This document shows, one piece after another, positions 19,854-47,097 of a stretch of DNA of 51,490 bases. The first letter of the stretch is position 1. Each line of letters begins with the position of its first letter. This DNA comes from Pedobacter sp. (lineage in GTDB: Bacteria > Desulfobacterota > Desulfuromonadia > Geobacterales > Pseudopelobacteraceae). The stretch lies in NCBI GenBank assembly GCA_041672425.1, contig JBAYZR010000001.1:1-51490 (forward strand), written 5' to 3'. The translations under genes and the position numbers were made by a program. A model generated the notes under the pieces. That model was not told where the DNA came from, ran no database searches, and saw only the letters and a list, made by a program, of their open reading frames with translations.

Positions 19854-19865
19854 CAGGGAGCACCG

Positions 19866-28667: not shown

Positions 28668-28714
28668 TTCTGGGATATTGATTTATACTGCAAACGGTAA
28701 AAAATGAGGTTTTT

Positions 28715-28789
28715 GTAGGGGCGATACCTCGTGTTCGCCCGCCTTTGGGTGGTGGTGCCCCCGGGGCGAACACAAGGTATCGCCCCTAC
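28715..28789. repeat. Large palindromic element (26-nt arms, 23-nt spacer)
   Basis: GTAGGGGCGATACCTCGTGTTCGCCC ... GGGCGAACACAAGGTATCGCCCCTAC. The arms differ at one position. Confidence 0.8.
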
Positions 28790-28962
28790 GAAACAACATC
28801 AACATGTCTTTGAAATACGCAAAACCAGGCGGTCAAAAGGAATATTACTCGGTTTCCCGAGCAATTTCGTTTTCAGCTTACACGACTGGAAACCGATCAA
28901 CTGGTCACAAATTGTGACCGGTTCAGCAATCTGAAACATTCCAGCTCGTTGCCATATACGTT

Positions 28963-29020
28963 TTCTTATTATCGATGATGACATTTATCACATTGGTGCA
29001 TCGCTGAAAGACTTGGGGAA
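28963..29020 (+). repeat. 58-bp direct repeat, left copy (3' gene fragment ...IIDDDIYHIGASLKDLG)
   Basis: 57/58 identical to 30324-30381. Confidence 0.85.
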
Positions 29021-29123
29021 TATCAGGTGGTGGCATGCGGTGCTTTTGTCCAACCATTTTCTGAAATGATATGTATTATGGTAAATAATTGACTAAAATG
29101 TATCTGAAGCGTATGGTCAGCCC

Positions 29124-30314
29124 ATGGATATTTCAACAATTCTCCAACTGAATGAAATTGCCCTGGCGCAAGGAAAGTCGCACCAGCGTAAACGATATGT
29201 GTTTCAGAAGATTTTCGACGACACCGGCAAGCACCAGATTGGCCTTGTCGGACCTCGTGGTTCGGGGAAAACCGTAATTCTGAAACAGCTTCTGGCTCAT
29301 TTTGAGGATACCGCCTGCTACATCTCGCTGGATGCTGTTGAGACTGGTGGCCTGTTCCAAGCCATTCAGACCCTCCATGAAAAATACAAATTCTCTCTTT
29401 TCCTCATTGATGAAATACATCATGAAAAACAGTATGCACGGGAGCTGAAAAAAGCGTACGACTTCATGGAAGTGCGCATCGTTTTTTCCAGTTCCGTCGC
29501 CCTGTCGCTCCATGAAACCGCCTACGATCTATCCAGAAGGGTAAATCTGGTCGCCATCAATCCCTTCAGTTTTCGGGAATTCCTCTATTTCACCAAGGAA
29601 CTCGAACTGCCCTCACTGTCTGTCATGCAACTCTTGGAGAAGCAATGGGACGCAGCTCATATTCGCCAGGAAATCCATTTCGAAAGCTTTCTGAAAGGCG
29701 GGCTGTTCCCCTTTGCTCTCGAAGAGCCAAACATACTACCGCTCCTGGGAAACATCCTTGACAAAATCATTACCGGCGACATTCCGCTGATCGGCAGGCT
29801 GCTGACAGACGAAATTCCCATTTTGCACAGGATGGTGCGCTTTATTGGCTCTTCGCCCCCGGACGGAATCAATTATTCATCACTCTCGAACAACCTGAAA
29901 ATCACCAAATATAAGGCTGAGCAGTATGTGCATCTTCTTGAACAGGCATTTGTGTTGAAATGCGTCATGCCTGTCGGGACAAATGTCATGAAAGAGCCGA
30001 AAATACTGCTGCGCCTGCCGTATCGGCTGTTGTTTCAACCGTTTGAGAATGCAATCGGCGCCATCAGGGAAGAATTTTTTGCGGAAATGATGATCTGTAA
30101 AGGAATCTCCTTCAACTATCTGAAATCGACAAGAGGGGCCAAGACCCCTGATTACCTGGTGCAATCCGATACGGAATCGTATGTTATCGAAATAGGAGGC
30201 CCCGGCAAGGGTCGTGAACAATTCAAAGGATTTGACGGAAAGAAGAATCTGATTCTTGCCCACGGCAACGAAACCACCGGAATAAAACGCCCCCTATTCC
30301 TGATAGGGTTTTAA
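29124..30314 (+). CDS. AAA+ ATPase of the AAA_14/DUF4143 (COG1373-like) family
   Basis: 396 aa with Walker A GLVGPRGSGKTVIL and Walker B LFLIDEIH. AINPFSFREFL is the typical PLSF-x-EF segment. Confidence 0.75.
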   Translation: MDISTILQLNEIALAQGKSHQRKRYVFQKIFDDTGKHQIGLVGPRGSGKTVILKQLLAHFEDTACYISLDAVETGGLFQAIQTLHEKYKFSLFLIDEIHHEKQYARELKKAYDFMEVRIVFSSSVALSLHETAYDLSRRVNLVAINPFSFREFLYFTKELELPSLSVMQLLEKQWDAAHIRQEIHFESFLKGGLFPFALEEPNILPLLGNILDKIITGDIPLIGRLLTDEIPILHRMVRFIGSSPPDGINYSSLSNNLKITKYKAEQYVHLLEQAFVLKCVMPVGTNVMKEPKILLRLPYRLLFQPFENAIGAIREEFFAEMMICKGISFNYLKSTRGAKTPDYLVQSDTESYVIEIGGPGKGREQFKGFDGKKNLILAHGNETTGIKRPLFLIGF

Positions 30315-30323
30315 ACTGCTATC

Positions 30324-30448
30324 TTCTCATTATCGATGATGACATTTATCACATTGGTGCATCGCTGAAAGACTTGGGGAAGAGATGGTTCGCCTTTTCG
30401 AAGATGGATGTAAGCGCAATTGAAATGTTGCAACGGGTGAAGATATGA
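30324..30448 (+). pseudogene. 3' end of an unidentified gene (right copy of the 58-bp repeat plus its natural tail)
   Basis: Reads ...IIDDDIYHIGASLKDLGKRWFAFSKMDVSAIEMLQRVKI*. The left copy at 28963 diverges after KDLG, so the ATPase segment sits inside this remnant. Confidence 0.5.
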
Positions 30449-30481
30449 ATGGGTGGGTGAGTTTGAGATTTGAAGGATAAT

Positions 30482-31015
30482 ATGGGATTTTCCATAAATG
30501 GTTCCTCAAATATCCGAAACTCTAACCTGACCCCAGAGGTTTTCCCATTCGGATTTCTAGAAGAAATTTTAGGGAAAGCGATCTTTGCGTTTACAGCAAC
30601 GCGATCATTTGAAGAGGCCGAGATTGCTGAGGCCTACGACGAGTGGCTTCCCAAGCTTGAGCGTGCTCTTATAGATCCTCTGGGAAATCTGATTGATGCT
30701 TACGGAAATGCGGTGCGAGACAATTCGGGCGCTGTAATAGAGAATTTTGATGAGATCCTTGGCGATCTACGAAAAGCTTCACAAATGCGGAACATTCTGT
30801 GTCACGGATCATGGAGATTGCCGGACACGAGCGGAGCTTCGATTCCCTTCTTCGTGAATCGTAAAAAGGAGATTGTTGACAGCGCAATGGATTGTCAGTT
30901 CCTTGATCAGGCGCAGAAACACACGGCCGATCTGGCATGTGTGGTTATTAACACCGTTACCCAAATGGGTTTGCAGTTTCCTGGGTCGGCTGGTCCAGGC
31001 AAGACAATTTGGTAA
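30482..31015 (+). CDS. HEPN-like protein (putative RNase)
   Basis: ATG at 30482 after an AAGGA RBS. LRKASQMRNILCHGSW contains an R-N-x3-H motif, the HEPN Rx4-6H consensus, in a helical context. Confidence 0.45.
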   Translation: MGFSINGSSNIRNSNLTPEVFPFGFLEEILGKAIFAFTATRSFEEAEIAEAYDEWLPKLERALIDPLGNLIDAYGNAVRDNSGAVIENFDEILGDLRKASQMRNILCHGSWRLPDTSGASIPFFVNRKKEIVDSAMDCQFLDQAQKHTADLACVVINTVTQMGLQFPGSAGPGKTIW

Positions 31016-31058
31016 TCCATTATCATAAATCCGAGAACCGTAAGAAAATGGAGGAAGT

Positions 31059-31592
31059 ATGGCTGTTCTGGTTGAGGGTATTTCCGTGATAATACGAGCA
31101 AGTGCAATTCATCAGAAATTTCCCGGAGGCTGGGACGCATTCAAACATATTGTTCCCAATCAAACATTGTGTGCCGACAATGAGATTGTTCGTATAGGTT
31201 TCATGAATCCAAATGACATTGAATCTTTCATAAAGAACCTTGAAAAAGAAGGGCTTGAATTTTTGAAAGCTGGAGAGGCTATTGATATTGCAGTTGCTGA
31301 CCAGATGAGAGGATTAACTTCAAAGTGTAGCTGGGCAGAATTCGGCCGTATCAATTTAGGTTCTAAACGAAATCAGGAGGTTGGAGCCTGCCGATTAGTT
31401 GGCAGCCAAGTCATGCAAGTTGTAACTCCACCTGACTGGAAATTTGATGGTTCATTGAGTCAAACATATGGTTTCGTTCCATCTGGACAAAATCAAACTG
31501 GCTTAAAATTCCTCAGGCATGAAAACGATCTTGATGTCTACTACGATTCACTTTCAGAGAAAGAGGTTTACGTGGGGCGAACCGGAGAGTGA
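31059..31592 (+). CDS. Hypothetical 177-aa protein
   Basis: ORF 43 nt downstream of the HEPN-like gene on the same strand. No motif recognised. Confidence 0.45.
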   Translation: MAVLVEGISVIIRASAIHQKFPGGWDAFKHIVPNQTLCADNEIVRIGFMNPNDIESFIKNLEKEGLEFLKAGEAIDIAVADQMRGLTSKCSWAEFGRINLGSKRNQEVGACRLVGSQVMQVVTPPDWKFDGSLSQTYGFVPSGQNQTGLKFLRHENDLDVYYDSLSEKEVYVGRTGE

Positions 31593-31707: not shown

Positions 31708-34700
31708 ATGCCGATAGATCTACAAGACACAGGCTATGTAGATAATGGAATAGAAGAAAATGGCTATGATGATACCGTATTTATTCCCGCACCTACTAAT
31801 GACCTCTTCAATGGTCAAGTGCCAATAGAGCAAGCGATACAAAGGCTCCGCACAAAACTACTTGATATTTCATCAAAAAACCGTCTTATCAGCTACAGAT
31901 ACCCAAAAGGCAAATCAATTCAATTTGTCAATTCCCCGAACCTAAATCTCATATTCAATCGCCTTACCGAAAGCAAGCCTATTGGCATCAGCTTCGTTCA
32001 AGACCCTCCTGTAGGTAGCTATACACAGAAAAAGCCCGATGTAAAAGTCATTGCGGAATCTCTTGGGATAGATGTCGATATAGATTTCCCTCCCGAATCA
32101 TGCGCTCCCAGTACCCATAGGCGCTTGTCTAACTTACAGGCCCTTTTTTACCCCCAAGATCTTGATAAAATATGCCGCAAAATTGCAAGCGAGGCTCGTA
32201 CAGTAATCGAGGAAACCGGCACAAATATGCTGTTCCTTATTTTCGGATTCCTTGAATTCTATGATTCCGACGATTCAGAGAAACCGATTTATGCACCATT
32301 ACTCGCTGTTCCTGTCACCCTAAATCGTGGGTCAATTGACCCAATAACCAGAACCTATTTGTATTCGATAAATTATTCAGGTGAGGATGTTCATTCAAAT
32401 CAGACTTTGAATGAAAAGATGAAGCAGGATTTCACTCTTAATTTGCCTGAATATAACGATGAAGAAGAAATTGGTGAATACTTTACTGCAATCTCCCAGG
32501 CTGTCAAAAACAAGAATCGGTGGAGAGTCAGATATCAGCTGACTTTGGGGTTCTTATCTTTTGGCAAGTTGGCTATTTGGGCAGACCTCGACCCTAAAAA
32601 GTGTTCTGGGCTTCTGACTCACCCATTATTGAATGAAATATTTTCTGGCGGCAATGGGGGTGGTGTCGGACAATCCGCAGAAGATTACGAGATTGATAAC
32701 CATTATCAGGGCGAACTCCCGCTAATCTATGATGCCGATTCATCACAGCATAGCGCAATAATAGATGTTATGGACGGGAAGAATATTGTAATCAATGGAC
32801 CTCCCGGAACCGGAAAATCGCAGACAATTACGAACATTATTGCATCAGGGTTGAACGCTGGTAAAACTGTTCTGTTTGTATCAGAAAAGCTTGCGGCCCT
32901 TGAAGTTGTACGGCATCGACTGAATCACGCAAATCTTGGTCATTTTTGTTTAGAACTGCACAGTCACAAAACTCAGAAGAAAAAGCTGTTGAGTGACCTT
33001 CAAGACCGTATCGATGCCTATTTTGTTCCCCCTCAACAATTGCAAAACCGGATAACAACGCTCAACCGCCACAAGAAAGACCTCAATCGGTATGTTGAAT
33101 TAATTTCTAGTCGAATTGGTAACGAACTTGGCCTAACTGTCCATGAAATCTTCTGGAAAACAGAACGATTTCGACAAATGAACTGTGAGATGGTCAATAC
33201 CCTCACATCGTTGAACTACCAAAAGGCTGAAAACTTAACTTTAGATGAAATTGCCGATTTACGTGCAAAGGTTGAAGTTCTAGGGCAATTATATTCGACA
33301 GTCAAAACCTACGATTCCAATCATCCATGGTGGGGGTTTTTCCCAAAGCCCCTTGCTCCAGGCGATGATTCAGCAATAAGTCTTGTAATAAACGAGGCCA
33401 AGACTCTTGCTGAAGCACTTTATATTTTGACAATTGAGTTCCAAGAACGGGTTTCATTTTTGCAGGAACCATCACTTGATACGCTATTGTCTTTCAATCG
33501 TCTTGTTCAAGAACTATCGACTCCACCAGATAACCTGAGAAGTGAAATATTTCCCCGCGTATTTAATGCTGAAGACCCGCTTGGTAAGCATAACAGGGGT
33601 CTTTTGAATGGCGTAATTAGCACAGTGAAAAACGCACGGGAGCTTAAGGAACAAGCAGAGAAAAATATAGTTCCTAATTGCGAATTGAGCTATGAAACCG
33701 CAGGACCTATTCTGGAGAGTTGCAAGAGTCAACTATCAAAAACCGCTTTTAGCACACCACTTCATATTGTTGCTGAATTCGTATCAGATGCCGAAAATGC
33801 CCTATCTCAATTCAAGAACGTTATCTCAGAATACAATTACATTTATCAGTCTATACCCGGTTCAAACACTGAAAAGCTGGAAAAGTTTGATTCAAGGTTT
33901 AATGCAACATTGCCACTCACCCTTGAAGAACAGCCGGAATGTCTTATCAGAGAAGGTTCGAGATTTCTTTCAGAAGAAATAGAAAGCCTGAAACAATCTT
34001 TTGAGCGAGTATCTGCAATTGCACATCACAGGGAATTGAAATTTGATGGGACTCCAACAGAAGTTGAGAATTTGGGACGTGGAGAAGGTATCGCAGAAAT
34101 TCTTCCTGGAGTCAGAATAGACGAATCGATACTTGAAAAAACAAGACAGGCCGCAAAATACTATCTATCAGACTTGCCTATCGGTGAGACAGATAGACGG
34201 CAACAGGGACTACATGACCTGAATGACCGGGTTAACCGTTTACTCTACGAAATCGGTGGATATGCCCAAAACCTGTATTTGACGTTTGACGGTACTCAGA
34301 AATCACTCGAATACCTTGCGACAATAAGCAAGATATCATCAGCTGCACCTACAGACCTCCTAGATTACCGTCACGCACCTCTTGCACATCCAATGTCGTT
34401 AGAGCTGATACCAAAGGCTGAAGAGGCGTTACAGTCCGAATTATTACAACGACAGGCACTTACTAACGCGTTCCATCTTGATGCTTTACCTGAATTGAGC
34501 ACGTTGAAGAGTACCATGCTGACGTTTAGACGTGGTGATAGCCTTTTCAATATATTCAACAGTGACTGGAGAGCTGCAAAGAAGCTCTTTAATAACCTGT
34601 CCAAGAATAAGACAAAGCATAAGGCATCTGAATATGAAGAGAAAATATCAAAAATAATCAGCTGGCTTGAGTACAGAACGGCACTTACTTCCAACGAAGA

Positions 34701-35034
34701 CTTCAAAAGGTCGTTTGGCCCATTGTTCAGAGGTCTTGATACAGACATCTCCAAAATTAAACGGTTGCACAACTGGTATATGGAGAGCATGGCAGAGTTG
34801 CTTAAGCATCCAGGGCTTATAGATAATGTCGATTTATCTACTATGAGTTCACAGACCATTAACCAGGTGGGGGCATTATCCGCAAGGATACAGGTAATTG
34901 TAGATGAACTTAATACCAGTTTGACCGAATGCAGGGATTTTCTTGGAGAAATCGCAGTACAGATGGACTCCGTTTTAGGCAGTCTGGATGGAATGAATAT
35001 AGCAAGAAAATCAGCGAGATTGCTGATGCTTTGA
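31708..35034 (+). CDS. DUF4011 / Upf1-like SF1 helicase giant protein, N-terminal part (frameshifted)
   Basis: LRTKLLDISSKNRLISYRYPKGKSIQF and MLFLIFGFLEFYDSDD fit the DUF4011 pattern. Walker A is INGPPGTGKSQTITN. The frame switches near 34960-34990 into the ORF starting at 34929. Confidence 0.75.
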   Translation: MPIDLQDTGYVDNGIEENGYDDTVFIPAPTNDLFNGQVPIEQAIQRLRTKLLDISSKNRLISYRYPKGKSIQFVNSPNLNLIFNRLTESKPIGISFVQDPPVGSYTQKKPDVKVIAESLGIDVDIDFPPESCAPSTHRRLSNLQALFYPQDLDKICRKIASEARTVIEETGTNMLFLIFGFLEFYDSDDSEKPIYAPLLAVPVTLNRGSIDPITRTYLYSINYSGEDVHSNQTLNEKMKQDFTLNLPEYNDEEEIGEYFTAISQAVKNKNRWRVRYQLTLGFLSFGKLAIWADLDPKKCSGLLTHPLLNEIFSGGNGGGVGQSAEDYEIDNHYQGELPLIYDADSSQHSAIIDVMDGKNIVINGPPGTGKSQTITNIIASGLNAGKTVLFVSEKLAALEVVRHRLNHANLGHFCLELHSHKTQKKKLLSDLQDRIDAYFVPPQQLQNRITTLNRHKKDLNRYVELISSRIGNELGLTVHEIFWKTERFRQMNCEMVNTLTSLNYQKAENLTLDEIADLRAKVEVLGQLYSTVKTYDSNHPWWGFFPKPLAPGDDSAISLVINEAKTLAEALYILTIEFQERVSFLQEPSLDTLLSFNRLVQELSTPPDNLRSEIFPRVFNAEDPLGKHNRGLLNGVISTVKNARELKEQAEKNIVPNCELSYETAGPILESCKSQLSKTAFSTPLHIVAEFVSDAENALSQFKNVISEYNYIYQSIPGSNTEKLEKFDSRFNATLPLTLEEQPECLIREGSRFLSEEIESLKQSFERVSAIAHHRELKFDGTPTEVENLGRGEGIAEILPGVRIDESILEKTRQAAKYYLSDLPIGETDRRQQGLHDLNDRVNRLLYEIGGYAQNLYLTFDGTQKSLEYLATISKISSAAPTDLLDYRHAPLAHPMSLELIPKAEEALQSELLQRQALTNAFHLDALPELSTLKSTMLTFRRGDSLFNIFNSDWRAAKKLFNNLSKNKTKHKASEYEEKISKIISWLEYRTALTSNEDFKRSFGPLFRGLDTDISKIKRLHNWYMESMAELLKHPGLIDNVDLSTMSSQTINQVGALSARIQVIVDELNTSLTECRDFLGEIAVQMDSVLGSLDGMNIARKSARLLML

Positions 35035-38101: not shown

Positions 38102-38232
38102 CCGGATATCTTGAAAGGCCGCATATCTCGGAACGGGGCAACTTCATTGAAATAGCCAACTATTTCGGCGGCGCGGAAAAGCTTCGGGAAGCGGCAAATG
38201 AGCTGCAAACGCTGCTCTATGCGGGATTCTAA
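38102..38232 (+). pseudogene. hsdR 3'-end remnant no. 2
   Basis: Encodes ...ISERGNFIEIANYFGGAEKLREAANELQTLLYAGF*, homologous to the last residues of the intact HsdR at 28667. Confidence 0.85.
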
Positions 38233-38553
38233 GTTTGCGATATTGATATTGATGAATAAGTGGTTCCATAGGTTGATTCGGGAAAATCAACCGTTGTCAT
38301 ATCTGCATATATTATGAAGTTTCAGTGCTACTGGATCGAGATAAATGGGTGTTGAACAATGCGAAATACTTTATGAACACAGAGTAAATATTCCGTTTGG
38401 ACAGATGACCTGTTTTTGCGCGCGCGTGAACTGCTCAACAATGAGTTGAACAAACCCGATAACAGATCAAATTCAAACCAAGAAACCGAGCGTCCTTGAA
38501 GGCCGCTGAACAAAGCATACTAGAATATCAATTCAAACTAAAATGTGGAGGAG

Positions 38554-40773: not shown

Positions 40774-40794
40774 TTTAACAAAGGTGAAAAAACG

Positions 40795-41616
40795 ATGAAA
40801 CCCGTTGAAAACGTATACGAAGTTGCCTTTATACTTCTCAGCTCGGTTGGCGGAGCGGCTGTGATTATTTGGAGCCTTTCATCCTGGCTCGGAAAGGTTT
40901 GGGCTAATCGGATTTTGGAATCTGAAAAAGCCAAATATACTAAAGAACTTGACTCCATCAGACATCAATTTCAGGTCGAACTGAATCGTGTGTCTATCAT
41001 TCATGAAAACCAAAAAATCAGCTTTCGAAACGTAATAATAGCATTAAGTAAAGCAATAAAGGCTTTAGAGCAGGCTTATGACGAAGAATGGTGTCCCATA
41101 AGTGATCGTAAATATGATGAATTGAGGAATATTGTGATCGAAGAATCTCTGTTTCTTGGGAAAGATGGAGAAAATGCATTGGATGTATTTTTGAAGTTTT
41201 TCGGAAAATCAACATATTTTCCAGAAATAGAAATTCAACCAGATCGGATGCTTAGGAACGTTTATGAATACTTGACTTACATCGATGGCAGAATTCGGGA
41301 GTACTTTAGAAAACGAATTGGACTGTCAGACGAAGAAAATCCGCTTTTTGAGGTTTACTTGCTAGACGTTTGTTTAATTCTCAATGACTACCATCCGAAG
41401 GGGAACCGGTTCACCTATGATGAAATCTTTAATTTTGATTTTGACTCTCCTCCATTGGTATTGATTGAAAAATATATATCTAATTTAGATGCACTTAAAG
41501 CAAATATGAAAAAATACATTGAAATAGTTGAGATAGACGACAAAAATAGGAAATTTTACTTTGAAGATCTTTCTAGGATAAGAATGTATTTGAAGCTTAT
41601 ATGTTCCAAGGGATAA
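40795..41616 (+). CDS. Single-pass membrane protein with a helical cytoplasmic domain
   Basis: 273 aa, 21 nt after the previous stop, with an AAAGGTGA RBS. The N-terminal hydrophobic helix is VAFILLSSVGGAAVIIWSLSSWLG. Confidence 0.6.
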   Translation: MKPVENVYEVAFILLSSVGGAAVIIWSLSSWLGKVWANRILESEKAKYTKELDSIRHQFQVELNRVSIIHENQKISFRNVIIALSKAIKALEQAYDEEWCPISDRKYDELRNIVIEESLFLGKDGENALDVFLKFFGKSTYFPEIEIQPDRMLRNVYEYLTYIDGRIREYFRKRIGLSDEENPLFEVYLLDVCLILNDYHPKGNRFTYDEIFNFDFDSPPLVLIEKYISNLDALKANMKKYIEIVEIDDKNRKFYFEDLSRIRMYLKLICSKG

Positions 41617-41747
41617 CGAACGTGTTTGAAAGTAACCGGTCGCCAAACACAGCCCGTTGAACTAATCCGCTTCGCGGAAAGTGCAAATCAAGCAAGTTAC
41701 AAGTGAAAAAACTCACCAACCACTCAACAATCATTGGGGATCGGTAT

Positions 41748-42458
41748 ATGCACCCATTAACATATTTTGTTGACGAATCGATCAAGGTCTTTGATGGAGA
41801 TGAAATTTGTGCGCTAATTGCAATTAAGACAATAGATTCTTCCAAGCTGAATTCACTTATCAGAGATTCAATAGCTAGAATTATTTCTGACCCAGTATTA
41901 AGTCAGCATAGCGGAATAAACGGCACATGGATTCCGCACTACTGTAATGACCACCCAATTGAAGTGCACCCGCAATTCTTGCGAGACATCTCCCAAATGC
42001 CATTTGAGGCATATATTGTATTTGGTCAAAAAAATAAGTTTCCGCAACTAGATGAGTACGACTGGTATGATAATCTGATAAAAATCCTATTTACGTTCAG
42101 GTTGTCTGCTGACAAGGGGCGCATTGATAGAGTCGTGTACGAGCAGCATGATTCCAAACTGGGCAAGAGGGAAATCCACCTACAGAAGTTATTTCAGTCA
42201 ATGACTCAGAAGGATGCACAAAGACGAAGAACCGAGACAACCAGCATACTGGTTAAGTCTGCTGGCAAAGATGTACTGCCTCTATGTTTGTCAGACTACA
42301 TCGGTGGAAGCTTTATGTCGTATCTGTGCGAGACTGACAAGTCAAAGCTGGGGCCAAAACGAAGAGGATTTGAATTAGTAGCAAAAAAGATACGCTGGAT
42401 CAAGAATGCCGACAGTAGCGAAATATATACATCAAAACATCCATTTTATAAGGATTGA
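41748..42458 (+). CDS. DUF3800-like protein
   Basis: ATG at 41748 after GGGGA. The track ORF starts at a GTG at 41703. The N-terminal YFVDES and C-terminal PLCLSDYIGG resemble the DUF3800 DESG and LQ-x-AD motifs, recalled from memory. Confidence 0.45.
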   Translation: MHPLTYFVDESIKVFDGDEICALIAIKTIDSSKLNSLIRDSIARIISDPVLSQHSGINGTWIPHYCNDHPIEVHPQFLRDISQMPFEAYIVFGQKNKFPQLDEYDWYDNLIKILFTFRLSADKGRIDRVVYEQHDSKLGKREIHLQKLFQSMTQKDAQRRRTETTSILVKSAGKDVLPLCLSDYIGGSFMSYLCETDKSKLGPKRRGFELVAKKIRWIKNADSSEIYTSKHPFYKD

Positions 42459-42483
42459 CAGGCATGCTCCAAACTGCGAATAT
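42455..42483 (+). promoter_or_regulatory. Sigma70-like promoter candidate overlapping the DUF3800-like gene stop
   Basis: TTGACA (42455-42460), a 17-nt spacer, then GAATAT (42478-42483). The predicted start near 42490 coincides with the 5' arm of the RNA stem. Confidence 0.4.
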
Positions 42484-42488
42484 GCAAC

Positions 42489-42574
42489 TGCTGGAGGGCG
42501 TGGGTAAATCGCCTCGGGCGCGAGTCGCGCTCGATTTTCTTCGACACTTTCAATCTTACCTACGTCCTCTGGCA
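42489..42574 (+). ncRNA. Structured RNA candidate (19-bp stem with 4 G-U pairs enclosing a GC hairpin); possible retron ncRNA part or RT leader
   Basis: GCTGGAGGGCGTGGGTAA (42490-42507) pairs with TTACCTACGTCCTCTGGC (42556-42573) through 14 Watson-Crick and 4 G-U pairs, plus one further flanking T-A pair. These four positions would be A-C mismatches on the opposite strand. The inner hairpin is GGGCGCG-AGT-CGCGCTC. Confidence 0.4.
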
Positions 42575-42576
42575 AT

Positions 42577-43506
42577 ATGATTAAATACGAACTCATAAAA
42601 AACATTGATGGTCTAAGCCTAAATCTTGGGGTCACACGTGCATATCTGACTCAAGCCATTGAGTCGCCCATTCTTCAGTACAATGTTGCAAAGATCCCCA
42701 AACGAGGCGGTAAGGGGCGGCGCACTTTGTATCTCGCCAACGACATTCTAAAAGGCATACAAAAAATTATCCGTGATGACTTGACTGACAGAACTAAATG
42801 GCCGGATTGCGTTCATGGTTTTGTAAAAGACCGGTCAATTGCAACCAACGCAAAGTTACATCTATCGAAGCGTGTTATTTTAAATTTAGACATCAAATCC
42901 TATTTTGAATCTATAGACAAGGCTAAAGTCGCGCAGGTTTTTTGCACACTCGGAGCAACTGAAAAAATTGGCGATCTGTTGGCTGCAATATGCACATGCG
43001 ATGACTACTTGGTGCCTGGGACTGTTTGTGCCCCTATTATTTCAAATATGGTGTTTTCCAATTGCGACAAAGACCTTCTTGAAATCGCAGCAAAATTTCA
43101 ATGCACATACTCAAGATATGTTGATGACATTACATTTTCCGGAGAAAACACCCCTCCGATTAAAGAGATAGACAACGTACTTAAATACCATGGGTTTTTT
43201 AGAAATACAGAGAAAACATTTCGGCAGACCCGTGGTCGAAGGCAATACGTCACTGGATTAACCGTGTTCGACCGAACCATTCCAAGAATTCCAAAATGGA
43301 AAAAAAACGAATTCAGAAAAAAAATTCATTTTATGGAGAAATATGGAATAGATGGCCATTTATCCAGAATTGGAAGCAGAGAATCAGTCGTAGATTTTGT
43401 AATAAGGTTTGATGGGCTGATTAGCTTCTATCTATCGATCGAGCCACACTTTATATCTAAATACATGGGAAATTGGCAAAAAGCTAAGAATTCTTGGGGA
43501 TATTAG
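42577..43506 (+). CDS. Retron-type reverse transcriptase
   Basis: 309 aa with IPKRGGKGRRTLY, HGFVKDRSIATNAKLH, LNLDIKSYFESI, YSRYVDDITFSG (YxDD box) and RRQYVTGLTVF (retron VTG motif). Confidence 0.85.
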   Translation: MIKYELIKNIDGLSLNLGVTRAYLTQAIESPILQYNVAKIPKRGGKGRRTLYLANDILKGIQKIIRDDLTDRTKWPDCVHGFVKDRSIATNAKLHLSKRVILNLDIKSYFESIDKAKVAQVFCTLGATEKIGDLLAAICTCDDYLVPGTVCAPIISNMVFSNCDKDLLEIAAKFQCTYSRYVDDITFSGENTPPIKEIDNVLKYHGFFRNTEKTFRQTRGRRQYVTGLTVFDRTIPRIPKWKKNEFRKKIHFMEKYGIDGHLSRIGSRESVVDFVIRFDGLISFYLSIEPHFISKYMGNWQKAKNSWGY

Positions 43507-43558: not shown

Positions 43559-43606
43559 AAAACGCCGTTAAGCCCTTTATTCTCCAAGGCGTAACGGCGT
43601 TTTTTA
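43559..43606 (+). terminator. Rho-independent terminator after the RT gene
   Basis: AAAACGCCGTTA ... TAACGGCGTTTTTT. Confidence 0.65.
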
Positions 43607-43667
43607 GGAAGGTTGAGGGGGCGTACTTGAAAAGTTGAGTTGAGAGGGCAGTCCCCTTTCTGGACCC

Positions 43668-43877
43668 TTTAGCCTCGAAGCTAGGGCTATTCTCGAAGAA
43701 CTACTGGAAAAATACGCCCAGCATGGCACCGCCCAATTTATTGTGCCGGATATCCTCAAAGTACCCCCTATTTCGGAACGGGGCAATGTCATTGAAATAG
43801 CCAACTATTTCGGCGGCGCGGAAAAGCTTCGGGAAGCGGTAAATGAGCTGCAAACGCTGCTCTATGCGGGATTCTAA
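43668..43877 (+). pseudogene. hsdR 3'-end remnant no. 3
   Basis: Encodes SLEARAILEELLEKYAQHGTAQFIVPDILKVPPISERGNVIEIANYFGGAEKLREAVNELQTLLYAGF*. An in-frame TGA lies just upstream and there is no start codon. Confidence 0.9.
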
Positions 43878-43967
43878 TGCAGAAAGACTGATATTATTAC
43901 CACGTATTCGTTGATATCACTGGAATAATTAAAGCAATTATTAAGTACTCTGCTATGGAGGAATGAC

Positions 43968-46900
43968 ATGATTGATATCCCACTTGGGCTTAGAAACACG
44001 CTTGAATCAGGGAATTGTGTCCTATTCATTGGGGCGGGTGTCGGTGGGCACTTAACTGATCCAGTCGGACGAAGTGCTCCTGATGGTGGTACTTTGGCTA
44101 GGGAGTTGGGGGACCACTTCGGAATTGACGTTGGAGATGCTCCGGATTTGATGAAAATCTCCAAGTTGGTTGAAATTCGTAAGGGGAGACAGGCCCTAGA
44201 GCTGTTTTTAAAAAAGAGACTAGCGAATCTTGAGCCTGACGAAAAGCTAAGGACTTTATTGACTCGAAGATGGAGAGCAATATTTACTACTAATTATGAT
44301 AATAGCATAAAGCGTGGGTTCGAGTTGTCTGAATCACCACAACAAAATCCAATTATTATTACTTCAACATCTGAAATAGTTGACTATGATGCAAGGTTTC
44401 AGGTGCCGATATACTATCTCCATGGCGCATTGTTTGGAGAAGAGATAACTAATATTGTAATTACTGACGATGACTACTCTACATTCAGAGAAAGTAGGAA
44501 GATGTTATTTGAACTTCTTAAAAAGGAGTTTATTACCTGTCCCATTCTTTATGTTGGATATAGCAATAGAGACCCAAACTGGAAAATTGTACTTTCAGAG
44601 ATTACTTCTGAATTTTATCCTTCGCCGTTACCTAAATCTTTCAGGATTGACCCTTATGCTGATGGCCACGACATAGAAATTATGTCTGCTAAGAACATTG
44701 ATACTGTAAATGCTACCATTGCTGACTTCTCGGATACCATTGCAGCAGAACTTCCTATAGATGCTGGAATATCAGATCGTCTTGCTAAACTTAAGGTCAA
44801 TATATCAGCAGATTTTTTAGATGCATTTGAACAAAACCCGGCCCCAGTAGTGCGCCTACTTTCATCATGGGAATACGTTAACGATGCCAATTTTGCGGGT
44901 GCACCTAATGTTCATAACTTTTTGCGAGGTGACCGACCAAACTGGGGTTTGATTGGAAAAAATGATGTCTTTGTAAGAGATATTGAAGAAGACGTATATA
45001 ATGATGTCATTGACTTTGCAACAATGGAAAACGTTCGGCCTTTTCAATCAGTTATTCTTGGGTCAGCAGGCTATGGTGTTACTACATTATTGATGACTAT
45101 TGCTGCAAGTATAATAAAAGAAAAAGCTGGAGCTGTTCTTTTCTTAAAGCCTGGTCGTCAACTGCTAGAGGGAGATGTAGATTTTGCCCTCTCAGTGATT
45201 AAAGGTAATGTTTATTTTATAATAGATAATGCTGCTGACAATCATCATAATCTGGCAGTAATGATCCAAAAACTTCGCGACGAAAAGAAAACCTGCTACT
45301 TCCTGGTTGGTGACAGAATAAACGAGTGGAGGCAGGTACAAGGGAAGGTTTCATTCAAGGAATTCGTGTTTGAACCTCTAACCGATCCTGAAATATATCG
45401 TTTGCTTGACTACCTTGCAAAACATAATGAGCTTAACACCTTAGAAGGCCTAACAAAGGAATTGCAATTTACCGCGATCAAGAATGTTCATGGCAAAGAA
45501 TTATTGATTGCTATGAGGGAGGCAACTGAAAATAAAAGCTTCGATGCGATTTTGGAAGATGAATTTTGGGGTATTGGTGATGCCTTTTCAAGAACAATGT
45601 ATCTTTATGTCTGTTTCTTTTATCAACATGGTGCATTTGTTAGGGCTTCTCTGCTTGCTGATCTCTTGGGTGTAGATGAGTCTGAGCTGTATGCTAGGAC
45701 AAAAAGTTCGACAGAAGGGGTTGTCCTTTTCGACTGCCTGAACGAGAGCACAGGCATGTATGGTGCAAGAACCCGTCATCGTACAATTGCTAATATTGTT
45801 TGGGACAGGTGTGGTGATGCTACAGAAAAAGAAGGCATAATCTATAAGGCTCTGGACGCAATCAATCTGACCTACAAAGCAGATAAAGACGCTTTTGAGT
45901 ACTTCACGAAGTCAGATTATATTGTTGACAGCATCAGGACCCTTGAGGGCAAAACAAAATTCTTTGAGGTTGCATGTCGTAAAGATCCTGTCAACCCATA
46001 TGTTCGCCAACATTATTCTCGTATGCTAGTACGCGAAAACAGGCATGAACTTGCGCTGTCACAAATTGACGAAGCATTAAAACTTAACCAACGACTTAGG
46101 GCGCTTTATCACACTAGGGGCATAGTTTTAATGCACATGGCACATTTTGCGGAGAGTTCTGATATTGGACGACGAAGGATGGCACAAAGTGAGTCCATGT
46201 TTAGAAAGTGCCTGTCCATGTATCCCAGGGACGACTATAGCTATCAAGGATTGGCTCAACTTTACATTGGATGGGCAAAAAAGAGACCTGAAACACCAGA
46301 AGAGGTAGCTGAATATGTTGGTAAGGCGGAGGGGGTAATAAATGAAGGTCTTCGTGTTGTTCGGGTACGAGATGCCTTATACATTGAGTCTTCAAATATC
46401 CAACAGCTGATTGGAGACGAACCATCTTATCTTCGTGCTCTCGAAAACGCCGTTAGGGTGAATGATGCAAGCGTTATAGCACGGTATTTGCTCGGTCGCG
46501 CCTACCGAAAGGCTGGCCGTTATAATGACGCCACTACTGTATTAGAATATATTATCAAAAACTTTATAGATGAGTTTAGATGCTTTATCGAATATGGCTT
46601 GTGTCTAATTTACAAGAAACAGTCATACACCAGTGCGATAGCTGTAATGAGCCTCAGTACTCTTTATGGTTTTAGTGATCCAAGATACCTTGCAACACTG
46701 GGAGGTATGTACTTCCTGAACCAGCAATTCGAGGAAGCTACTAGAATATTCAGTGAGACTGGTAGGCGGAATTTCACTGCAAATGAATTGAACGCCATCC
46801 AGTTTATTCCACCTGACCCCACGGACATCTCACAGGAATTACGTTTTACCGGCTCTTGCATTAAAACAAAGCCAGGATACTCTCTCGTAGAGACACCCGG

Positions 46901-47027
46901 GTATCCGCCATTCTTGCTCCCTGGTTCAAAGTATGACGGGATGGTGATTCACGAAGGGGTTAAAATGTCCTTTGTTCCAGCATTTACTGCGCGAGGAAAT
47001 ATCGCTCATCGTCCGTTACCAACTTGA
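43968..47027 (+). CDS. SIR2-STAND-TPR protein (Avs5-like / SIR2-STAND antiviral ATPase architecture)
   Basis: 1019 aa with a GGAGGA RBS. SIR2_2-type motifs CVLFIGAGVG, IFTTNYDN and YYLHGAL. The central P-loop-like region is VILGSAGYGVTTLLM with YFIIDNAADN. The C-terminus holds TPR-like repeats (YQGLAQLYIGWA, RYLLGRAYRKAGRYNDA). Confidence 0.75.
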   Translation: MIDIPLGLRNTLESGNCVLFIGAGVGGHLTDPVGRSAPDGGTLARELGDHFGIDVGDAPDLMKISKLVEIRKGRQALELFLKKRLANLEPDEKLRTLLTRRWRAIFTTNYDNSIKRGFELSESPQQNPIIITSTSEIVDYDARFQVPIYYLHGALFGEEITNIVITDDDYSTFRESRKMLFELLKKEFITCPILYVGYSNRDPNWKIVLSEITSEFYPSPLPKSFRIDPYADGHDIEIMSAKNIDTVNATIADFSDTIAAELPIDAGISDRLAKLKVNISADFLDAFEQNPAPVVRLLSSWEYVNDANFAGAPNVHNFLRGDRPNWGLIGKNDVFVRDIEEDVYNDVIDFATMENVRPFQSVILGSAGYGVTTLLMTIAASIIKEKAGAVLFLKPGRQLLEGDVDFALSVIKGNVYFIIDNAADNHHNLAVMIQKLRDEKKTCYFLVGDRINEWRQVQGKVSFKEFVFEPLTDPEIYRLLDYLAKHNELNTLEGLTKELQFTAIKNVHGKELLIAMREATENKSFDAILEDEFWGIGDAFSRTMYLYVCFFYQHGAFVRASLLADLLGVDESELYARTKSSTEGVVLFDCLNESTGMYGARTRHRTIANIVWDRCGDATEKEGIIYKALDAINLTYKADKDAFEYFTKSDYIVDSIRTLEGKTKFFEVACRKDPVNPYVRQHYSRMLVRENRHELALSQIDEALKLNQRLRALYHTRGIVLMHMAHFAESSDIGRRRMAQSESMFRKCLSMYPRDDYSYQGLAQLYIGWAKKRPETPEEVAEYVGKAEGVINEGLRVVRVRDALYIESSNIQQLIGDEPSYLRALENAVRVNDASVIARYLLGRAYRKAGRYNDATTVLEYIIKNFIDEFRCFIEYGLCLIYKKQSYTSAIAVMSLSTLYGFSDPRYLATLGGMYFLNQQFEEATRIFSETGRRNFTANELNAIQFIPPDPTDISQELRFTGSCIKTKPGYSLVETPGYPPFLLPGSKYDGMVIHEGVKMSFVPAFTARGNIAHRPLPT

Positions 47028-47097
47028 AACACTGCTCGAACTTTCCCTATTTCCGATCTTGAAATTAGAATATTTGCTTAATCCTAAAAGGAAACCA

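What the first reader, a model, noticed from the sequence alone, without database searches (positions are those of the whole stretch)
28668..47097. Type I R-M operon split by three cassettes, with duplicated hsdR 3' ends marking the cassette junctions
The intact hsdR ends at 28667 (...PDILKVPPISERGNVIEIAGYFGGAEKLREAVNELQTLLYSGF*). The same C-terminal coding sequence recurs outside any complete gene at ~38102-38232 and ~43668-43877. Remnants 2 and 3 are almost identical to each other over their last ~90 nt. They differ from the resident hsdR at many synonymous positions. They therefore derive from other hsdR alleles and were probably imported together with the cassettes. A short GATATTGAT or GATATTATT motif follows all three stop codons. 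hsdM, yhcG and hsdS resume at 47098. This is the footprint expected from repeated homologous (Campbell-type) capture of foreign DNA at the hsdR-hsdM junction. Abortive-infection genes embedded within Type I loci are known, for example PrrC within the EcoprrI locus. A three-deep stack with preserved scars is unusual, and it defines the cassette boundaries at 28668-38101, 38233-43667 and 43878-47097.
Basis: partly seen in the sequence, partly recalled or inferred. Interest (0 to 1): 0.8.

Follow-up and report, generated by a model that had tools for sequence, protein, structure and literature searches.

The report
Defence-gene stack inside a restriction operon
A Geobacter-type Type I restriction-modification operon has 18 kb of anti-phage genes between hsdR and hsdM, with the modules separated by leftover hsdR 3' ends and a newly noticed ~92-nt repeat, which points to defence genes being gained and shuffled here by recombination on conserved linker DNA.

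Summary
The last 208 nt and 131-147 nt of hsdR recur at 43671-43877 and 38102-38232 (E 2e-52 and 6e-33). Against the intact copy, remnant 3 shows 30 synonymous-only and 5 non-synonymous codon differences. The two remnants match at 100 of 104 positions over their 3' parts.

- The hsdR-hsdM junction is empty (<150 nt) in 16 of 37 related loci.
- In the Geobacteraceae clade it holds 0.5 to over 10 kb of varied defence systems, including CBASS, Lamassu, McrBC and Tmn; in this window they are an Hhe-like helicase-nuclease, a type VII retron and SIR2-STAND.
- hsdR 3' remnants recur in at least 10 other loci, with different breakpoints.
- One remnant (L037) arose in place, by deletion between two short matching motifs inside hsdR.
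- Remnant 2 is a three-part mosaic, which indicates ongoing homologous recombination or gene conversion.

A second cassette (an AAA_14 ATPase) has the same repeat-flanked architecture inside a decayed ORF6N gene.

Best model: recombination-driven cassette exchange anchored on conserved linkers. Strict Campbell-type capture is possible but not shown. This is a new variant of the known embedding of defence genes in Type I R-M loci.

The parts
26292..28667 (+). Intact hsdR (791 aa; ResIII, Helicase_C and EcoEI_R_C domains). Its last ~208 nt is the repeated segment.
   Evidence: Pfam. 88-98% aa identity to Geobacteraceae relatives L001-L011. ~90-95% nt identity to the closest alleles along the whole gene, with no break at the 3' end.
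28668..28690 (+). Conserved spacer after the hsdR stop codon (TAA..TGGGATATTGATTT). This is the left edge of the insertion slot.
   Evidence: Shared with L004, L037, L052, L058 and with remnant 2.
28711..28793 (.). Palindromic filler (30-nt arms, 93% complementary) that replaces the 5' part of a decayed ORF6N-family gene.
   Evidence: the repeat finder I1. Comparison with the intact gene in L004.
28823..29020 (+). Fragments of a decayed ORF6N-family gene. 28823-28962 matches L004 3074-3213. 28959-29020 is copy 1 of the 58-nt repeat (D3), joined to the first fragment at a CGTTT microhomology.
   Evidence: BLASTN against L004, 98% identity. Pfam ORF6N match.
29021..30323 (+). AAA_14/DUF4143 ATPase cassette (gene 29124-30314; PADLOC PDC-S01), inserted in the 3' region of the ORF6N gene.
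   Evidence: The same gene is 98-99% identical in L037 and L057. The right junction is shared with L037.
30324..30448 (+). Copy 2 of the 58-nt repeat D3 (98% identical to copy 1), followed by the true 3' end of the ORF6N gene.
30470..31592 (+). Two small ORFs (181 aa and 177 aa) with no family match.
   Evidence: Both are called as genes on the ENA contig.
31708..38024 (+). Hhe/PDC-S37-like helicase-nuclease encoded as two genes: 31708-35034 (DUF4011) and 35031-38024 (AAA_11/12, MTES_1575 nuclease, GreA/B C-terminal domain). The gene calls on the ENA contig put the second start 4 nt before the first stop.
   Evidence: Pfam and PADLOC. Gene calls. The stop codon of the second gene lies inside E.
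38012..38105 (+). E repeat, full copy.
   Evidence: nhmmer E 1.5e-27. The same Hhe-E junction occurs in L062. The same junction between E and the remnant occurs in L005.
38102..38250 (+). hsdR 3' remnant 2 (codons ~750-791, stop at 38230-38232) plus the conserved spacer after the stop. It is a three-part mosaic.
38251..38470 (+). Leader of cassette 2. It ends in a GC-rich hairpin followed by motif G, GCTCAACAATGAGTTGAAC (38433-38451).
   Evidence: The same leader design follows hsdR 3' ends in L001, L002, L005, L009, L049 and L058, and follows E in L062.
38545..41616 (+). A 742-aa protein with a PIG-L deacetylase domain and a 273-aa protein. Neither matches a known defence family.
41703..43506 (+). 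Type VII-A2-like retron: DUF3800 protein (41703-42458) and reverse transcriptase (42577-43506).
   Evidence: PADLOC DUF3800_VII 4.8e-18 and RT_VII-A2 1e-72.
43605..43667 (+). E repeat, second copy, with a ~30-nt internal deletion. It follows a hairpin and T-run at about 43560-43605.
   Evidence: nhmmer E 1e-7. Alignment.
43671..43895 (+). hsdR 3' remnant 3 (codons ~723-791, stop at 43875-43877) plus the spacer after the stop.
43968..47027 (+). Single-gene SIR2-nSTAND5-TPR defence protein (1019 aa).
   Evidence: Relatives are at most 57% identical and lie in unrelated defence islands.
47063..47097 (+). Conserved spacer and ribosome-binding site before hsdM. This is the right edge of the insertion slot.
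   Evidence: Alignment of the regions upstream of hsdM.
47098..50808 (+). hsdM (47098-48531), embedded yhcG nuclease gene (48633-49670) and hsdS (49663-50808).

Best explanation
In this Geobacteraceae family of Type I R-M operons, which ride on mobile elements, the ~20-nt hsdR-hsdM spacer acts as a slot that collects anti-phage cassettes in the direction of transcription.

Cassettes are gained, lost and reshuffled by the host's general recombination, not by a dedicated recombinase. Exchange is anchored on short conserved linker sequences that recur between cassettes:
- the hsdR 3' end with its spacer after the stop codon and the F/G leader;
- the ~92-nt E repeat;
- the start of hsdM.

The first copy of each linker junction is made by an illegitimate, microhomology-mediated event: an internal deletion, a tandem duplication, or the joining that forms a circle. 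Once a cassette lies between two copies of a linker it can be moved by homologous recombination in two ways. It can loop out as a circle and re-enter by a single crossover. It can also be copied into a related operon by a double crossover, with one exchange in the hsdR body and the other in the remnant.

On this model the remnants are non-coding scars. They persist because they are short and diverged, and they are partly homogenised by gene conversion.

Shown here: the repeats, their recurrence and varied breakpoints, the mosaicism, the empty junctions, and the variable cargo. Inferred: the recombination pathway, its dependence on RecA, and any role of E beyond providing homology.
For: (1) The remnants are real and derive from a functional allele.
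(2) The slot is variable: 16 of 37 loci are empty (<150 nt), and all seven close relatives carry 0.45-18.4 kb. Cargo differs in each: Hhe-like, retron VII and SIR2-STAND in the window; Lamassu in L005; McrBC in L002; CBASS in L058; Tmn in L006; a patatin effector in L009; SMEK-STAND in L001.
(3) Both sides of each linker vary independently. The same junction between E and the remnant lies between Hhe and the PIG-L cassette in the window, but after Lamassu and before a different sequence in L005. Hhe-E is followed by the remnant in the window but directly by motif G in L062. The same hsdR-3'/F/G leader follows an intact hsdR in L002, L005 and L009 and follows remnants in L049 and L058.
(4) Mosaicism and concerted evolution. 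The first 31 nt of remnant 2 match the L005 remnant at 29/31 (23/31 to remnant 3). Its next 104 nt match remnant 3 at 100/104 (81/104 to L005). The intact and remnant copies in L005 are identical over their last ~67 nt.
(5) Junctions lie at microhomologies. L037 is fused at FVLP/FVVP. The ORF6N gene has an internal deletion at CGTTT and another junction at an 11-nt GACTTGGGGAA repeat.
(6) A second, independent example: the AAA_14 cassette was flanked by a repeat of at least ~205 nt of the ORF6N 3' end plus downstream DNA.
(7) No recombinase gene lies within or next to the arrays examined in the window, L005, L049 or L052. The only integrase in the window is a P4-type enzyme beside tRNA-Glu, 7 kb upstream of hsdR.
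(8) The loci sit on mobile elements (integrase island; F-type TrbC/TraG genes), which bring diverged alleles into the same cell.
Against: No recombination intermediate, excised circle or pair of strains differing by a single cassette was observed, so the pathway is inferred from end products. Six apparently independent remnant breakpoints fall within about 12 codons (740-752), tighter than random illegitimate joining predicts. Loss of long repeats over time and local GTGCCG/CCGG microhomology may explain this, but neither was tested. E has sharp ends on both sides, a nearly invariant 33-nt core and a fixed orientation in all 17 copies. That is more than a passive homology patch needs, and it hints at a sequence-specific function. 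E was found only in a small set of contigs, so its distribution across whole genomes is unknown.
Confidence: 0.6

Rival explanations
1. Strict Campbell-type capture. Each cassette arrived as a circular molecule carrying a piece of an hsdR 3' end and entered by one homologous crossover at the resident hsdR 3' end. This happened three times, and each event left one extra hsdR 3' copy.
For: Each inserted block is bracketed by direct repeats of the upstream gene's 3' end. The junction between E and the remnant reads like the closure point of a circle, with the cassette's right end joined to the start of the homology segment. The AAA_14 cassette shows the predicted product: ORF6N, cassette, then a repeat of the ORF6N 3' end.
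Against: There is no evidence for circles. Remnants can arise in place by deletion (L037 and L030). The 3' end of the intact hsdR belongs to the same allele group as the rest of the gene, with no visible crossover point. Remnant 2 is a mosaic, so the scars have been rewritten. E also separates cassettes where no hsdR remnant is present, which this model does not predict. Tandem duplication followed by cassette replacement gives the same end product.
Confidence: 0.2
2. An integron-like, site-specific system. E, and possibly the hsdR 3' end, would be attachment sites for a recombinase encoded elsewhere, which inserts and excises cassettes.
For: E is about 92 nt long with sharp ends and an imperfect 17-bp inverted repeat. 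All 17 copies have the same orientation, and all lie between defence cassettes of this operon family. E is present in L057 and absent in the window and L037 at the same AAA_14 junction. Single-gene cassettes bracketed by two E copies occur in L005, L059 and L064.
Against: No recombinase gene was found in or beside the arrays in the ORFs examined. E lacks the integron attC end motifs (RYYYAAC/GTTRRRY; my reading of the alignment, compared with the published consensus from memory). Its centre is conserved and its arms vary, the opposite of attC. There are no target-site duplications. Junctions with hsdR lie at different positions: codon ~722 for remnant 3 and ~750 for remnant 2.
Confidence: 0.08
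3. The linkers are kept because they work in gene expression. The hsdR 3' end, the F/G leader and E would be portable promoters, operators, insulators or RNA-processing sites that give each embedded cassette its own expression control. This does not exclude the recombination model.
For: Orientation is fixed. E or motif G sits 10-100 nt upstream of cassette start codons. E has a nearly invariant core. Motif G is a 7+7 palindrome preceded by a GC-rich hairpin. Every hsdR deletion derivative keeps at least the last ~30 codons next to the downstream genes.
Against: The consensus scan found no sigma-70-like promoter or intrinsic terminator in the remnants or in E. The consensus fold of E is weak (-5.7 kcal/mol) with almost no covariation (2 of 18 predicted pairs, covariation term +0.06), and single copies fold no better than shuffled sequence. 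There is no Rfam match. The remnants have no conserved start codon.
Confidence: 0.15
4. Assembly artefact. The stack would be a chimera of several strains, each with a single cassette, joined through the shared repeats.
For: Remnants 2 and 3 share about 105 nt at 96-99% identity. The independent ENA contig begins inside the hsdR 3' repeat, at about window position 28475, which suggests a break in the assembly graph there.
Against: A separate contig carries the hsdR 3' end, all three blocks, both remnants and hsdM-hsdS in the same gene order; over the 18.9 kb compared directly it differs by one mismatch. The junctions between E and each remnant are unique sequences that cannot arise by mis-joining intact hsdR ends. 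The same architecture appears in unrelated assemblies (L005, L058, L039).
Confidence: 0.03

Closest known systems
Defence genes embedded in Type I R-M operons: PrrC in EcoprrI, TgvAB in Vibrio cholerae VPI-2, and the 'guilt-by-embedding' survey of Payne et al. 2024 (bioRxiv 10.1101/2024.01.29.577857; PMC11411939; PMC12707154)
   Same: Unrelated defence systems sit between the hsd genes, in the same orientation. The cargo includes known embedded families such as AAA_14/PDC-S01, YhcG and ORF6N-type genes.
   Different: Published cases have one or two embedded genes. A term search of the Payne et al. text found no mention of recombination, remnants or hsdR, and three wider literature searches turned up no description of such scars. 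Here 18.4 kb holds at least five modules, with hsdR 3' remnants and a dedicated repeat between them.
Defence hotspots bounded by conserved genes and exchanged by flanking homology, such as the E. coli immigration control region and hotspots 36/37 (PMC12707154)
   Same: A fixed slot between conserved anchors, an 'empty site' in some relatives, and a high turnover of defence cargo.
   Different: Here the anchors are two genes of one operon only ~20 nt apart. Copies of one anchor's 3' end are repeated inside the island and serve as extra internal anchors.
Integrative islands that target the 3' end of a tRNA or protein gene and carry a replacement 3' end, accreting in tandem
   Same: Direct repeats of a gene's 3' end flank each inserted block. 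The target gene stays intact and several blocks accumulate in tandem.
   Different: The blocks carry no integrase. The intact copy and the remnants are only ~80% identical and have no common identical core. Remnant 5' ends differ (codons 722, 750 and, in relatives, 740-761).
Integron cassette arrays with attC sites, and Acinetobacter pdif modules
   Same: An ordered, co-oriented array of cassettes separated by a structured repeat of about 60-140 nt.
   Different: No IntI or Xer-type recombinase was found. E lacks attC or dif features. The conservation pattern is reversed: core conserved, arms variable.
   Same: Short conserved sequences between functional modules would serve as crossover points for homologous recombination between diverged genomes.
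   Different: Here the idea applies to defence cassettes inside a bacterial operon, and one of the linkers is a gene fragment.

Membership tests
Type I restriction-modification system (HsdR with EcoEI_R_C C-terminal domain) | HsdR with helicase/ResIII motor and family-specific C-terminal domain | tested here: met
   ResIII 4e-38, Helicase_C 1e-5 and EcoEI_R_C 3e-27 in 26292-28667.
Type I restriction-modification system (HsdR with EcoEI_R_C C-terminal domain) | HsdM N6-adenine methylase and HsdS specificity subunit in the same operon | tested here: met
   N6_Mtase 2e-66 and HsdM_N in 47098-48531; Methylase_S in 49663-50808. All three ORFs are intact. Enzyme activity was not tested.
Defence systems embedded in a Type I R-M operon | Non-hsd genes lying between hsd genes on the same strand | tested here: met
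   Every large ORF from 29124 to 47027 is on the + strand between hsdR and hsdM, and yhcG lies between hsdM and hsdS.
Defence systems embedded in a Type I R-M operon | Embedded genes match known or candidate defence families | tested here: met
   PADLOC hits: PDC-S01, Hhe/PDC-S37, retron RT_VII-A2 with DUF3800_VII, and a SIR2 (ThsA-like) domain with a STAND NTPase. The PIG-L protein, the 273-aa protein and the two small ORFs have no hit.
Campbell-type (single-crossover) insertion | Insert flanked by direct repeats of the homology segment | tested here: met
   hsdR 3' copies lie ahead of each block. The 58-nt D3 repeat flanks the AAA_14 cassette.
Campbell-type (single-crossover) insertion | A circular intermediate, or reciprocal hybrid repeats that can be traced to donor and recipient alleles | tested here: inconclusive
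   No donor or recipient pair is available. The repeats are mosaics rewritten by later exchange. The intact hsdR shows no allele switch at its 3' end.
Integron | IntI-type tyrosine recombinase next to the array | tested here: not met
   The only integrase in the window is a P4-type enzyme (Arm-DNA-bind_3, Phage_int_M) beside tRNA-Glu at 17851-19173. No integrase was found in the ORFs examined in the window, L005, L049 or L052.
Integron | attC sites with conserved ends (RYYYAAC ... GTTRRRY) and a variable centre | tested here: not met
   In the alignment of 15 E copies the centre is nearly invariant, the arms vary, and I see no such end motifs. The attC consensus is from memory.
Small non-autonomous mobile repeat (MITE/REP-like), considered for E | Terminal inverted repeats with target-site duplications; copies dispersed in both orientations | tested here: not met
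   The inverted repeat is imperfect and internal. No target-site duplication is visible. All 17 copies share the operon's orientation, and all lie in this operon's island. Whole-genome distribution could not be checked.
Gene-3'-end-targeting integrative island | Element-encoded integrase and an identical core repeat at both ends | tested here: not met
   The blocks carry no integrase. The intact copy and the remnants are ~80% identical, with variable 5' ends.
Retron type VII-A2 (one of the cassettes) | Retron-type RT with a separate DUF3800 effector | tested here: met
   RT_VII-A2 1e-72 and DUF3800_VII 5e-18.
Retron type VII-A2 (one of the cassettes) | Associated msr-msd non-coding RNA | not tested
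   Only a GC-rich hairpin at 42514-42534, between the two genes, was noticed. There is no Rfam hit.

The most novel reading that the evidence does not exclude
The hsdR 3' end, the F/G leader and the E repeat together would form a dedicated cassette-capture platform, a functional analogue of an integron built into a Type I R-M operon. E would be a sequence-specific site for a factor acting in trans (a recombinase, or a protein that directs breaks or template switching). Together with the hsdR 3' end it would define mobile units, letting mobile elements swap whole anti-phage systems in and out of a single co-transcribed array.
Probability: 0.12. Interest if true: 0.85.

Novelty: new variant of a known kind. 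Interest (0 to 1): 0.55.

Why it matters
Embedding of defence genes in R-M, BREX and related operons is already used to find new immune systems ('guilt by embedding'), but how the genes get there is not explained. This locus family offers a readable record: an empty slot in distant relatives, a wide choice of cargo in close ones, and molecular scars and linker repeats at the junctions.

If conserved linkers do drive cassette exchange, three things follow:
- It would explain how operon-embedded defence arrays grow without dedicated mobility genes.
- Cassette boundaries, and so new defence genes, could be found from sequence alone. Candidates here are the PIG-L protein with its 273-aa partner and the small ORFs bracketed by E.
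- It gives a system that can be tested in a genetically tractable genus (Geobacter).

The practical caveat is that the scars are rewritten by gene conversion, so they cannot be read as a simple history of insertions.

Tried and rejected
- Known RNA families. Rfam found only tRNA-Glu at gathering thresholds and nothing credible at permissive thresholds on the linker regions.
- A conserved RNA or DNA structure for E. Single copies fold no better than shuffled sequence. The consensus fold of 15 copies is -5.7 kcal/mol with a covariation term of +0.06.
- Promoters or terminators in the remnants and E. The consensus scan flagged none. Hand inspection of the last 130 nt of hsdR found only weak -10/-35 candidates.
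- E as a phage-borne sequence. There were no matches in viral contigs.
- E as an integron attC, a dif-like site or a MITE. All three were rejected on end motifs, conservation pattern, lack of target-site duplications and fixed orientation.
- Resemblance of E's arms to the acceptor stem of the nearby tRNA-Glu (AGGGGACG / CGTCCCCT). This is an 8-9 nt match that I judge compatible with chance. No copy of the tRNA 3' end (attR) lies in the window.
- RptR-type regulation. Its TAGCTA operator (PMC12255303) does not resemble motif G or E.
- A mini-HsdR peptide expressed from the remnants. No conserved start codon or reading frame lies upstream.
- Exact look-up of the window's HsdR. It is not on record.
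- Relatives of the SIR2-STAND gene next to other hsdR genes. The two examined lie in unrelated defence islands.
- Literature searches for hsdR remnants or for a mechanism of embedding. None described one.

Full report

Yes. BLASTN of the hsdR 3' end against the window gives two further copies. One is 43671-43878 (208 nt, 80.8% identity, E 1.8e-52). The other is 38102-38247 (147 nt, 80.3%, E 6e-33). Everything else has E of 0.19 or worse, and the repeat finder reports the same families.

Neither extra copy is part of a long ORF. Over 69 codons, the intact copy and remnant 3 differ at 30 synonymous-only and 5 non-synonymous codons. Remnant 3 therefore diverged while it belonged to a working hsdR allele. 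Remnants 2 and 3 match at 100 of 104 positions over their 3' parts. The 5' end of remnant 2 has a 1-nt deletion and several replacements.

The short 'GATATTGAT' motif is the start of a ~20-nt spacer after the stop codon, and the same spacer is conserved in relatives.

A separate 23-kb ENA contig carries the hsdR 3' end, all inserted genes and hsdM-hsdS in the same order. Over the 18.9 kb compared directly it differs by one mismatch. Mis-assembly is therefore unlikely.

**2. What lies between hsdR and hsdM?**

All large ORFs are on the + strand. GC content is 32-47%, against ~52-56% for the hsd genes.

Block 1 is composite:
- fragments of a decayed ORF6N-family gene, which is intact and 306 aa long in L004;
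- an AAA_14/DUF4143 ATPase cassette (PADLOC PDC-S01) inserted in the 3' region of that gene;
- two small ORFs of unknown function;
- a two-gene Hhe/PDC-S37-like helicase-nuclease. The gene calls on the ENA contig put its second gene 4 nt ahead of the first gene's stop, so this looks like two coupled genes rather than a frameshift.

Block 2 has a 742-aa PIG-L-domain protein and a 273-aa protein, neither with a defence annotation. It also has a type VII-A2-like retron: a DUF3800 protein and a reverse transcriptase.

Block 3 is one SIR2-nSTAND5-TPR gene. Its relatives are at most 57% identical and lie in unrelated defence islands.

Downstream come hsdM (the start is the ATG at 47098), yhcG and hsdS.

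The whole locus sits on an integrative element. It starts with tRNA-Glu (17656-17733), followed by a P4-type integrase, an AlpA-like gene and a phage replisome-organiser gene.

**3. Relatives**

A scan of one genome per species with the remnant-3 peptide returned 56 loci. HsdR of L001-L011 is 88-98% identical to the window's, and all are Geobacteraceae or Desulfuromonadaceae.

Of 37 loci with both genes on one contig:
- 16 have an essentially empty junction (-17 to 103 nt);
- 15 have 150-2000 nt;
- 6 have 2 kb or more.

All seven close relatives are occupied (0.45-18.4 kb), and the window is the largest. L030, a Geobacter genome bin, has a decayed hsdR directly abutting hsdM with a 20-nt spacer.

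The cargo differs from genome to genome:

| Locus | Cargo |
|---|---|
| L005 | Lamassu and a PDC-M36A-like gene |
| L002 | McrBC |
| L058 | CBASS |
| L006 | Tmn/YobI |
| L009 | patatin effector |
| L001 | SMEK-STAND |

The junction is a genuine, highly variable defence slot.

**4. Remnants elsewhere**

hsdR 3' fragments recur in several settings:
- downstream of an intact hsdR in L005 (9.7 kb away), L058 and L039, the last from Verrucomicrobiota;
- as orphans in L030, L037, L049, L052, L053, L055 and L056.

Their 5' ends and the sequences upstream of them differ, so several independent events are involved. The breakpoints are at about codons 720, 722, 740, 743, 745, 749, 750, 752 and 761.

L037 is informative. 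Its remnant reads MSNEADTCRKFV|LPDILKVPP..., which is hsdR codons 1-12 fused in frame to 745-791. The fusion lies at the similar FVLP and FVVP motifs, and the native upstream region is retained. This is an in-place deletion, not an import.

**5.

The 33 nt shared upstream of both remnants (repeat finder D9) belongs to a ~92-nt element that I call E. Its consensus is:

GGAAGGCTGAGGGGACGTACTTAAAAAGTTGATTTGAGAGGGCAAAAGGGTCAGTTGGGAAAGTTTTCAAGAACGTCCCCTTCCGGGACC

It contains an imperfect 17-bp inverted repeat. A profile search finds it at these places:
- 38012-38105 in the window (full copy);
- 43605-43667 in the window (with a ~30-nt internal deletion);
- four times in L005 and once in L002;
- on eight of nine metagenome contigs that share its core; the hit on the ninth, L061, is weak.

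It has no exact-core match in viral contigs.

All 17 copies point the same way as the operon, and both ends are sharp. E lies between cassettes. Examples:
- three unknown genes | E | PDC-M36A-like gene | partial E | 167-aa ORF | E | Lamassu | E + remnant, in L005;
- McrBC | E | two genes | hsdM, in L002;
- CBASS | E | one gene | remnant | three genes | hsdM, in L058;
- E | 126-aa ORF | E, in L059 and L064.

E is present at the AAA_14 junction in L057 but absent at the same junction in the window and L037.

E has no Rfam match, no thermodynamic or covariation support for a conserved fold, and no promoter or terminator consensus. Its central 33 nt are almost invariant.

A further recurring leader follows hsdR 3' ends. 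It is about 200 nt long (F) and ends in a GC-rich hairpin plus the palindromic motif G, GCTCAACAATGAGTTGAAC. The same leader follows both intact and remnant hsdR 3' ends, and motif G directly follows E in L062.

**6. Evidence for recombination on the linkers**

(a) Both sides of each linker vary independently. The identical junction between E and the remnant (…CCTTACGGGACC|GGATATCTTGAAAG…) lies between Hhe and the PIG-L block in the window. In L005 it lies after Lamassu and before a different sequence. A 99.5%-identical Hhe-E is followed by motif G and other genes in L062.

(b) Remnant 2 is a three-part mosaic.

| Segment of remnant 2 | Match to L005 remnant | Match to remnant 3 |
|---|---|---|
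| First 31 nt | 29/31 | 23/31 |
| Next 104 nt | 81/104 | 100/104 |

Its spacer after the stop codon is closest to that of the window's intact copy.

(c) Within L005, the intact and remnant copies are identical over their last ~67 nt but differ upstream. Copies within one genome resembling each other most is the signature of gene conversion or recent exchange.

(d) Junctions sit at microhomologies: FVLP/FVVP in L037, CGTTT inside the ORF6N gene, and an 11-nt GACTTGGGGAA repeat at the left AAA_14 junction.

(e) The AAA_14 cassette is a second, independent example of the same architecture. The window and L037 share its right junction (L004 coordinate ~3709). L037 also keeps a second copy of the segment downstream of ORF6N on the left. 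The common precursor was therefore ORF6N, downstream segment, AAA_14, then a repeat of at least ~205 nt of the ORF6N 3' end plus downstream segment.

**7. Mechanism**

The most economical reading has two steps. First, an illegitimate, microhomology-mediated event creates a cassette bracketed by two copies of a linker. The event could be a deletion, a tandem duplication, or the closure of a circle. After that, ordinary homologous recombination can loop the cassette out, re-insert it by a single crossover, or copy it into a related operon by a double crossover. In the double crossover, one exchange lies in the hsdR body and the other in the remnant or in E.

The loci ride on mobile elements: an integrase island here, and F-type TrbC/TraG genes in L005. 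Mobile elements bring diverged alleles into the same cell.

Long, similar repeats would be unstable. This may explain why mostly short (31-82 codon), diverged remnants survive. That point is inference, not a result.

It cannot be separated here from duplication followed by replacement, or from double crossovers. It also explains neither the E copies without remnants nor the in-place deletion in L037.

A site-specific, integron-like system is not excluded. In its favour are E's sharp ends, fixed orientation and invariant core. Against it, no recombinase was found in or beside the arrays examined, and E lacks attC-like features.

A role for the linkers in expression is possible and compatible with the recombination model, but the scans available here do not support it.

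**8. Comparison with what is known**

Defence genes embedded in Type I loci are well documented. Examples are PrrC, TgvAB (PMC11411939) and the large survey of embedded genes by Payne et al. 2024 (bioRxiv 10.1101/2024.01.29.577857). Conserved-anchor hotspots such as the E. coli immigration control region are also known (PMC12707154). A term search of the Payne et al. text found no mention of recombination, remnants or hsdR, and three wider searches found no description of hsdR 3' scars, linker repeats or a mechanism for embedding.

The finding is therefore a new variant of a known kind. The embedding itself is ordinary. The deep stack, the recurrent gene-end scars and the E linker are new details, and they make the mechanism testable.

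**9. Caveats**

- All mechanistic steps are inferred from end products.
- Six apparently independent breakpoints cluster within codons 740-752. Microhomology at GTGCCG/CCGG and survivorship explain this only loosely.
- Most comparison loci are metagenome-assembled.

**10. Verdict**

Interest is 0.55. Confidence in the recombination-on-linkers model is 0.6.

Noticed in passing
window 38012-38105 and 43605-43667; L005 13754-13848, 15363-15413, 16035-16132, 19820-19916; L002 10349-10446; L057-L060 and L062-L065: A ~92-nt repeat (E) with a nearly invariant 33-nt core and a fixed orientation. It is found only between defence cassettes of this operon family. It has no Rfam match and no match in viral contigs.
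   Followed up: yes
window 38400-38451; L001 10313, L005 10406, L049 3426, L062 383-401: A recurring leader that ends in a GC-rich hairpin (GTTTCACGCGC...GCGCGTGAAAC) plus the palindromic motif GCTCAACAATGAGTTGAAC, just upstream of the first gene of several cassettes. It may be an operator or an attenuator.
   Followed up: partly
window 28963-29020 and 30324-30381: A 58-nt direct repeat (98% identical) flanks the AAA_14 ATPase cassette. It is a piece of a decayed ORF6N-family gene that is intact in L004 (2915-3835). This is the same repeat-flanked insertion architecture as the hsdR remnants.
   Followed up: yes
window 28711-28793: A palindrome with 30-nt arms (93% complementary, 23-nt loop) replaces the 5' part of the ORF6N gene. 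Its origin is unknown.
   Followed up: no
window 31708-35034 and 35031-38024: The Hhe/PDC-S37-like helicase-nuclease, a single protein in the PADLOC models, is split here into two genes. The ENA gene calls put the second start 4 nt before the first stop, so it is probably a genuine two-gene variant and not a frameshift. Its stop codon lies inside E.
   Followed up: partly
window 38545-41616: A 742-aa protein with a PIG-L deacetylase domain and a 273-aa protein have no match to any defence family but sit inside the array. They are candidate new defence genes by position.
   Followed up: no
window 17656-20423: tRNA-Glu is followed by a P4-type integrase, an AlpA-like gene and a phage replisome-organiser gene, so the R-M locus sits on an integrative element. 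No second copy of the tRNA 3' end lies in the window. In L005 the same R-M family lies next to F-type conjugation genes (TrbC, TraG).
   Followed up: partly
window 25452-26231 (also L006 6995-7771; L049 1432-2046): An AbiEi-type regulator or antitoxin gene lies directly upstream of hsdR with no recognisable AbiEii partner. It may regulate the operon.
   Followed up: no
window 48633-49670: A yhcG (DUF1016/PDDEXK) gene lies between hsdM and hsdS, which makes a second insertion slot. Some relatives have hsdM directly followed by hsdS (L003, L006), and others carry different genes there (L009). E precedes yhcG-like genes in L059 and L063.
   Followed up: partly
L012, L014, L015, L020, L024, L050, L051: Distant relatives from several phyla share an insert of very similar size (1497-1583 nt) at the hsdR-hsdM junction. 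This suggests one widespread single-gene passenger.
   Followed up: no
L059 3255-3886 and L064 14-662: A 126-aa ORF bracketed by two E copies occurs on two different metagenome contigs. It is the clearest example of a single-gene cassette bounded by E.
   Followed up: no
window 42514-42534: A GC-rich hairpin followed by a T-rich tail lies between the retron DUF3800 and RT genes. It may be part of the retron non-coding RNA.
   Followed up: no
window 5729-10816: A ParE toxin gene, a short fragment with a weak McrBC-like match and a 1194-aa SNF2-family helicase lie upstream of the core genes secA and argJ. This could be a second defence-related patch.
   Followed up: no
L039 3189-3341: In a Verrucomicrobiota genome bin, an hsdR 3' remnant (codons ~740-788) lies 55 nt after an intact hsdR, with 3.7 kb before hsdM. 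The same kind of scar therefore occurs in a distant phylum.
   Followed up: partly
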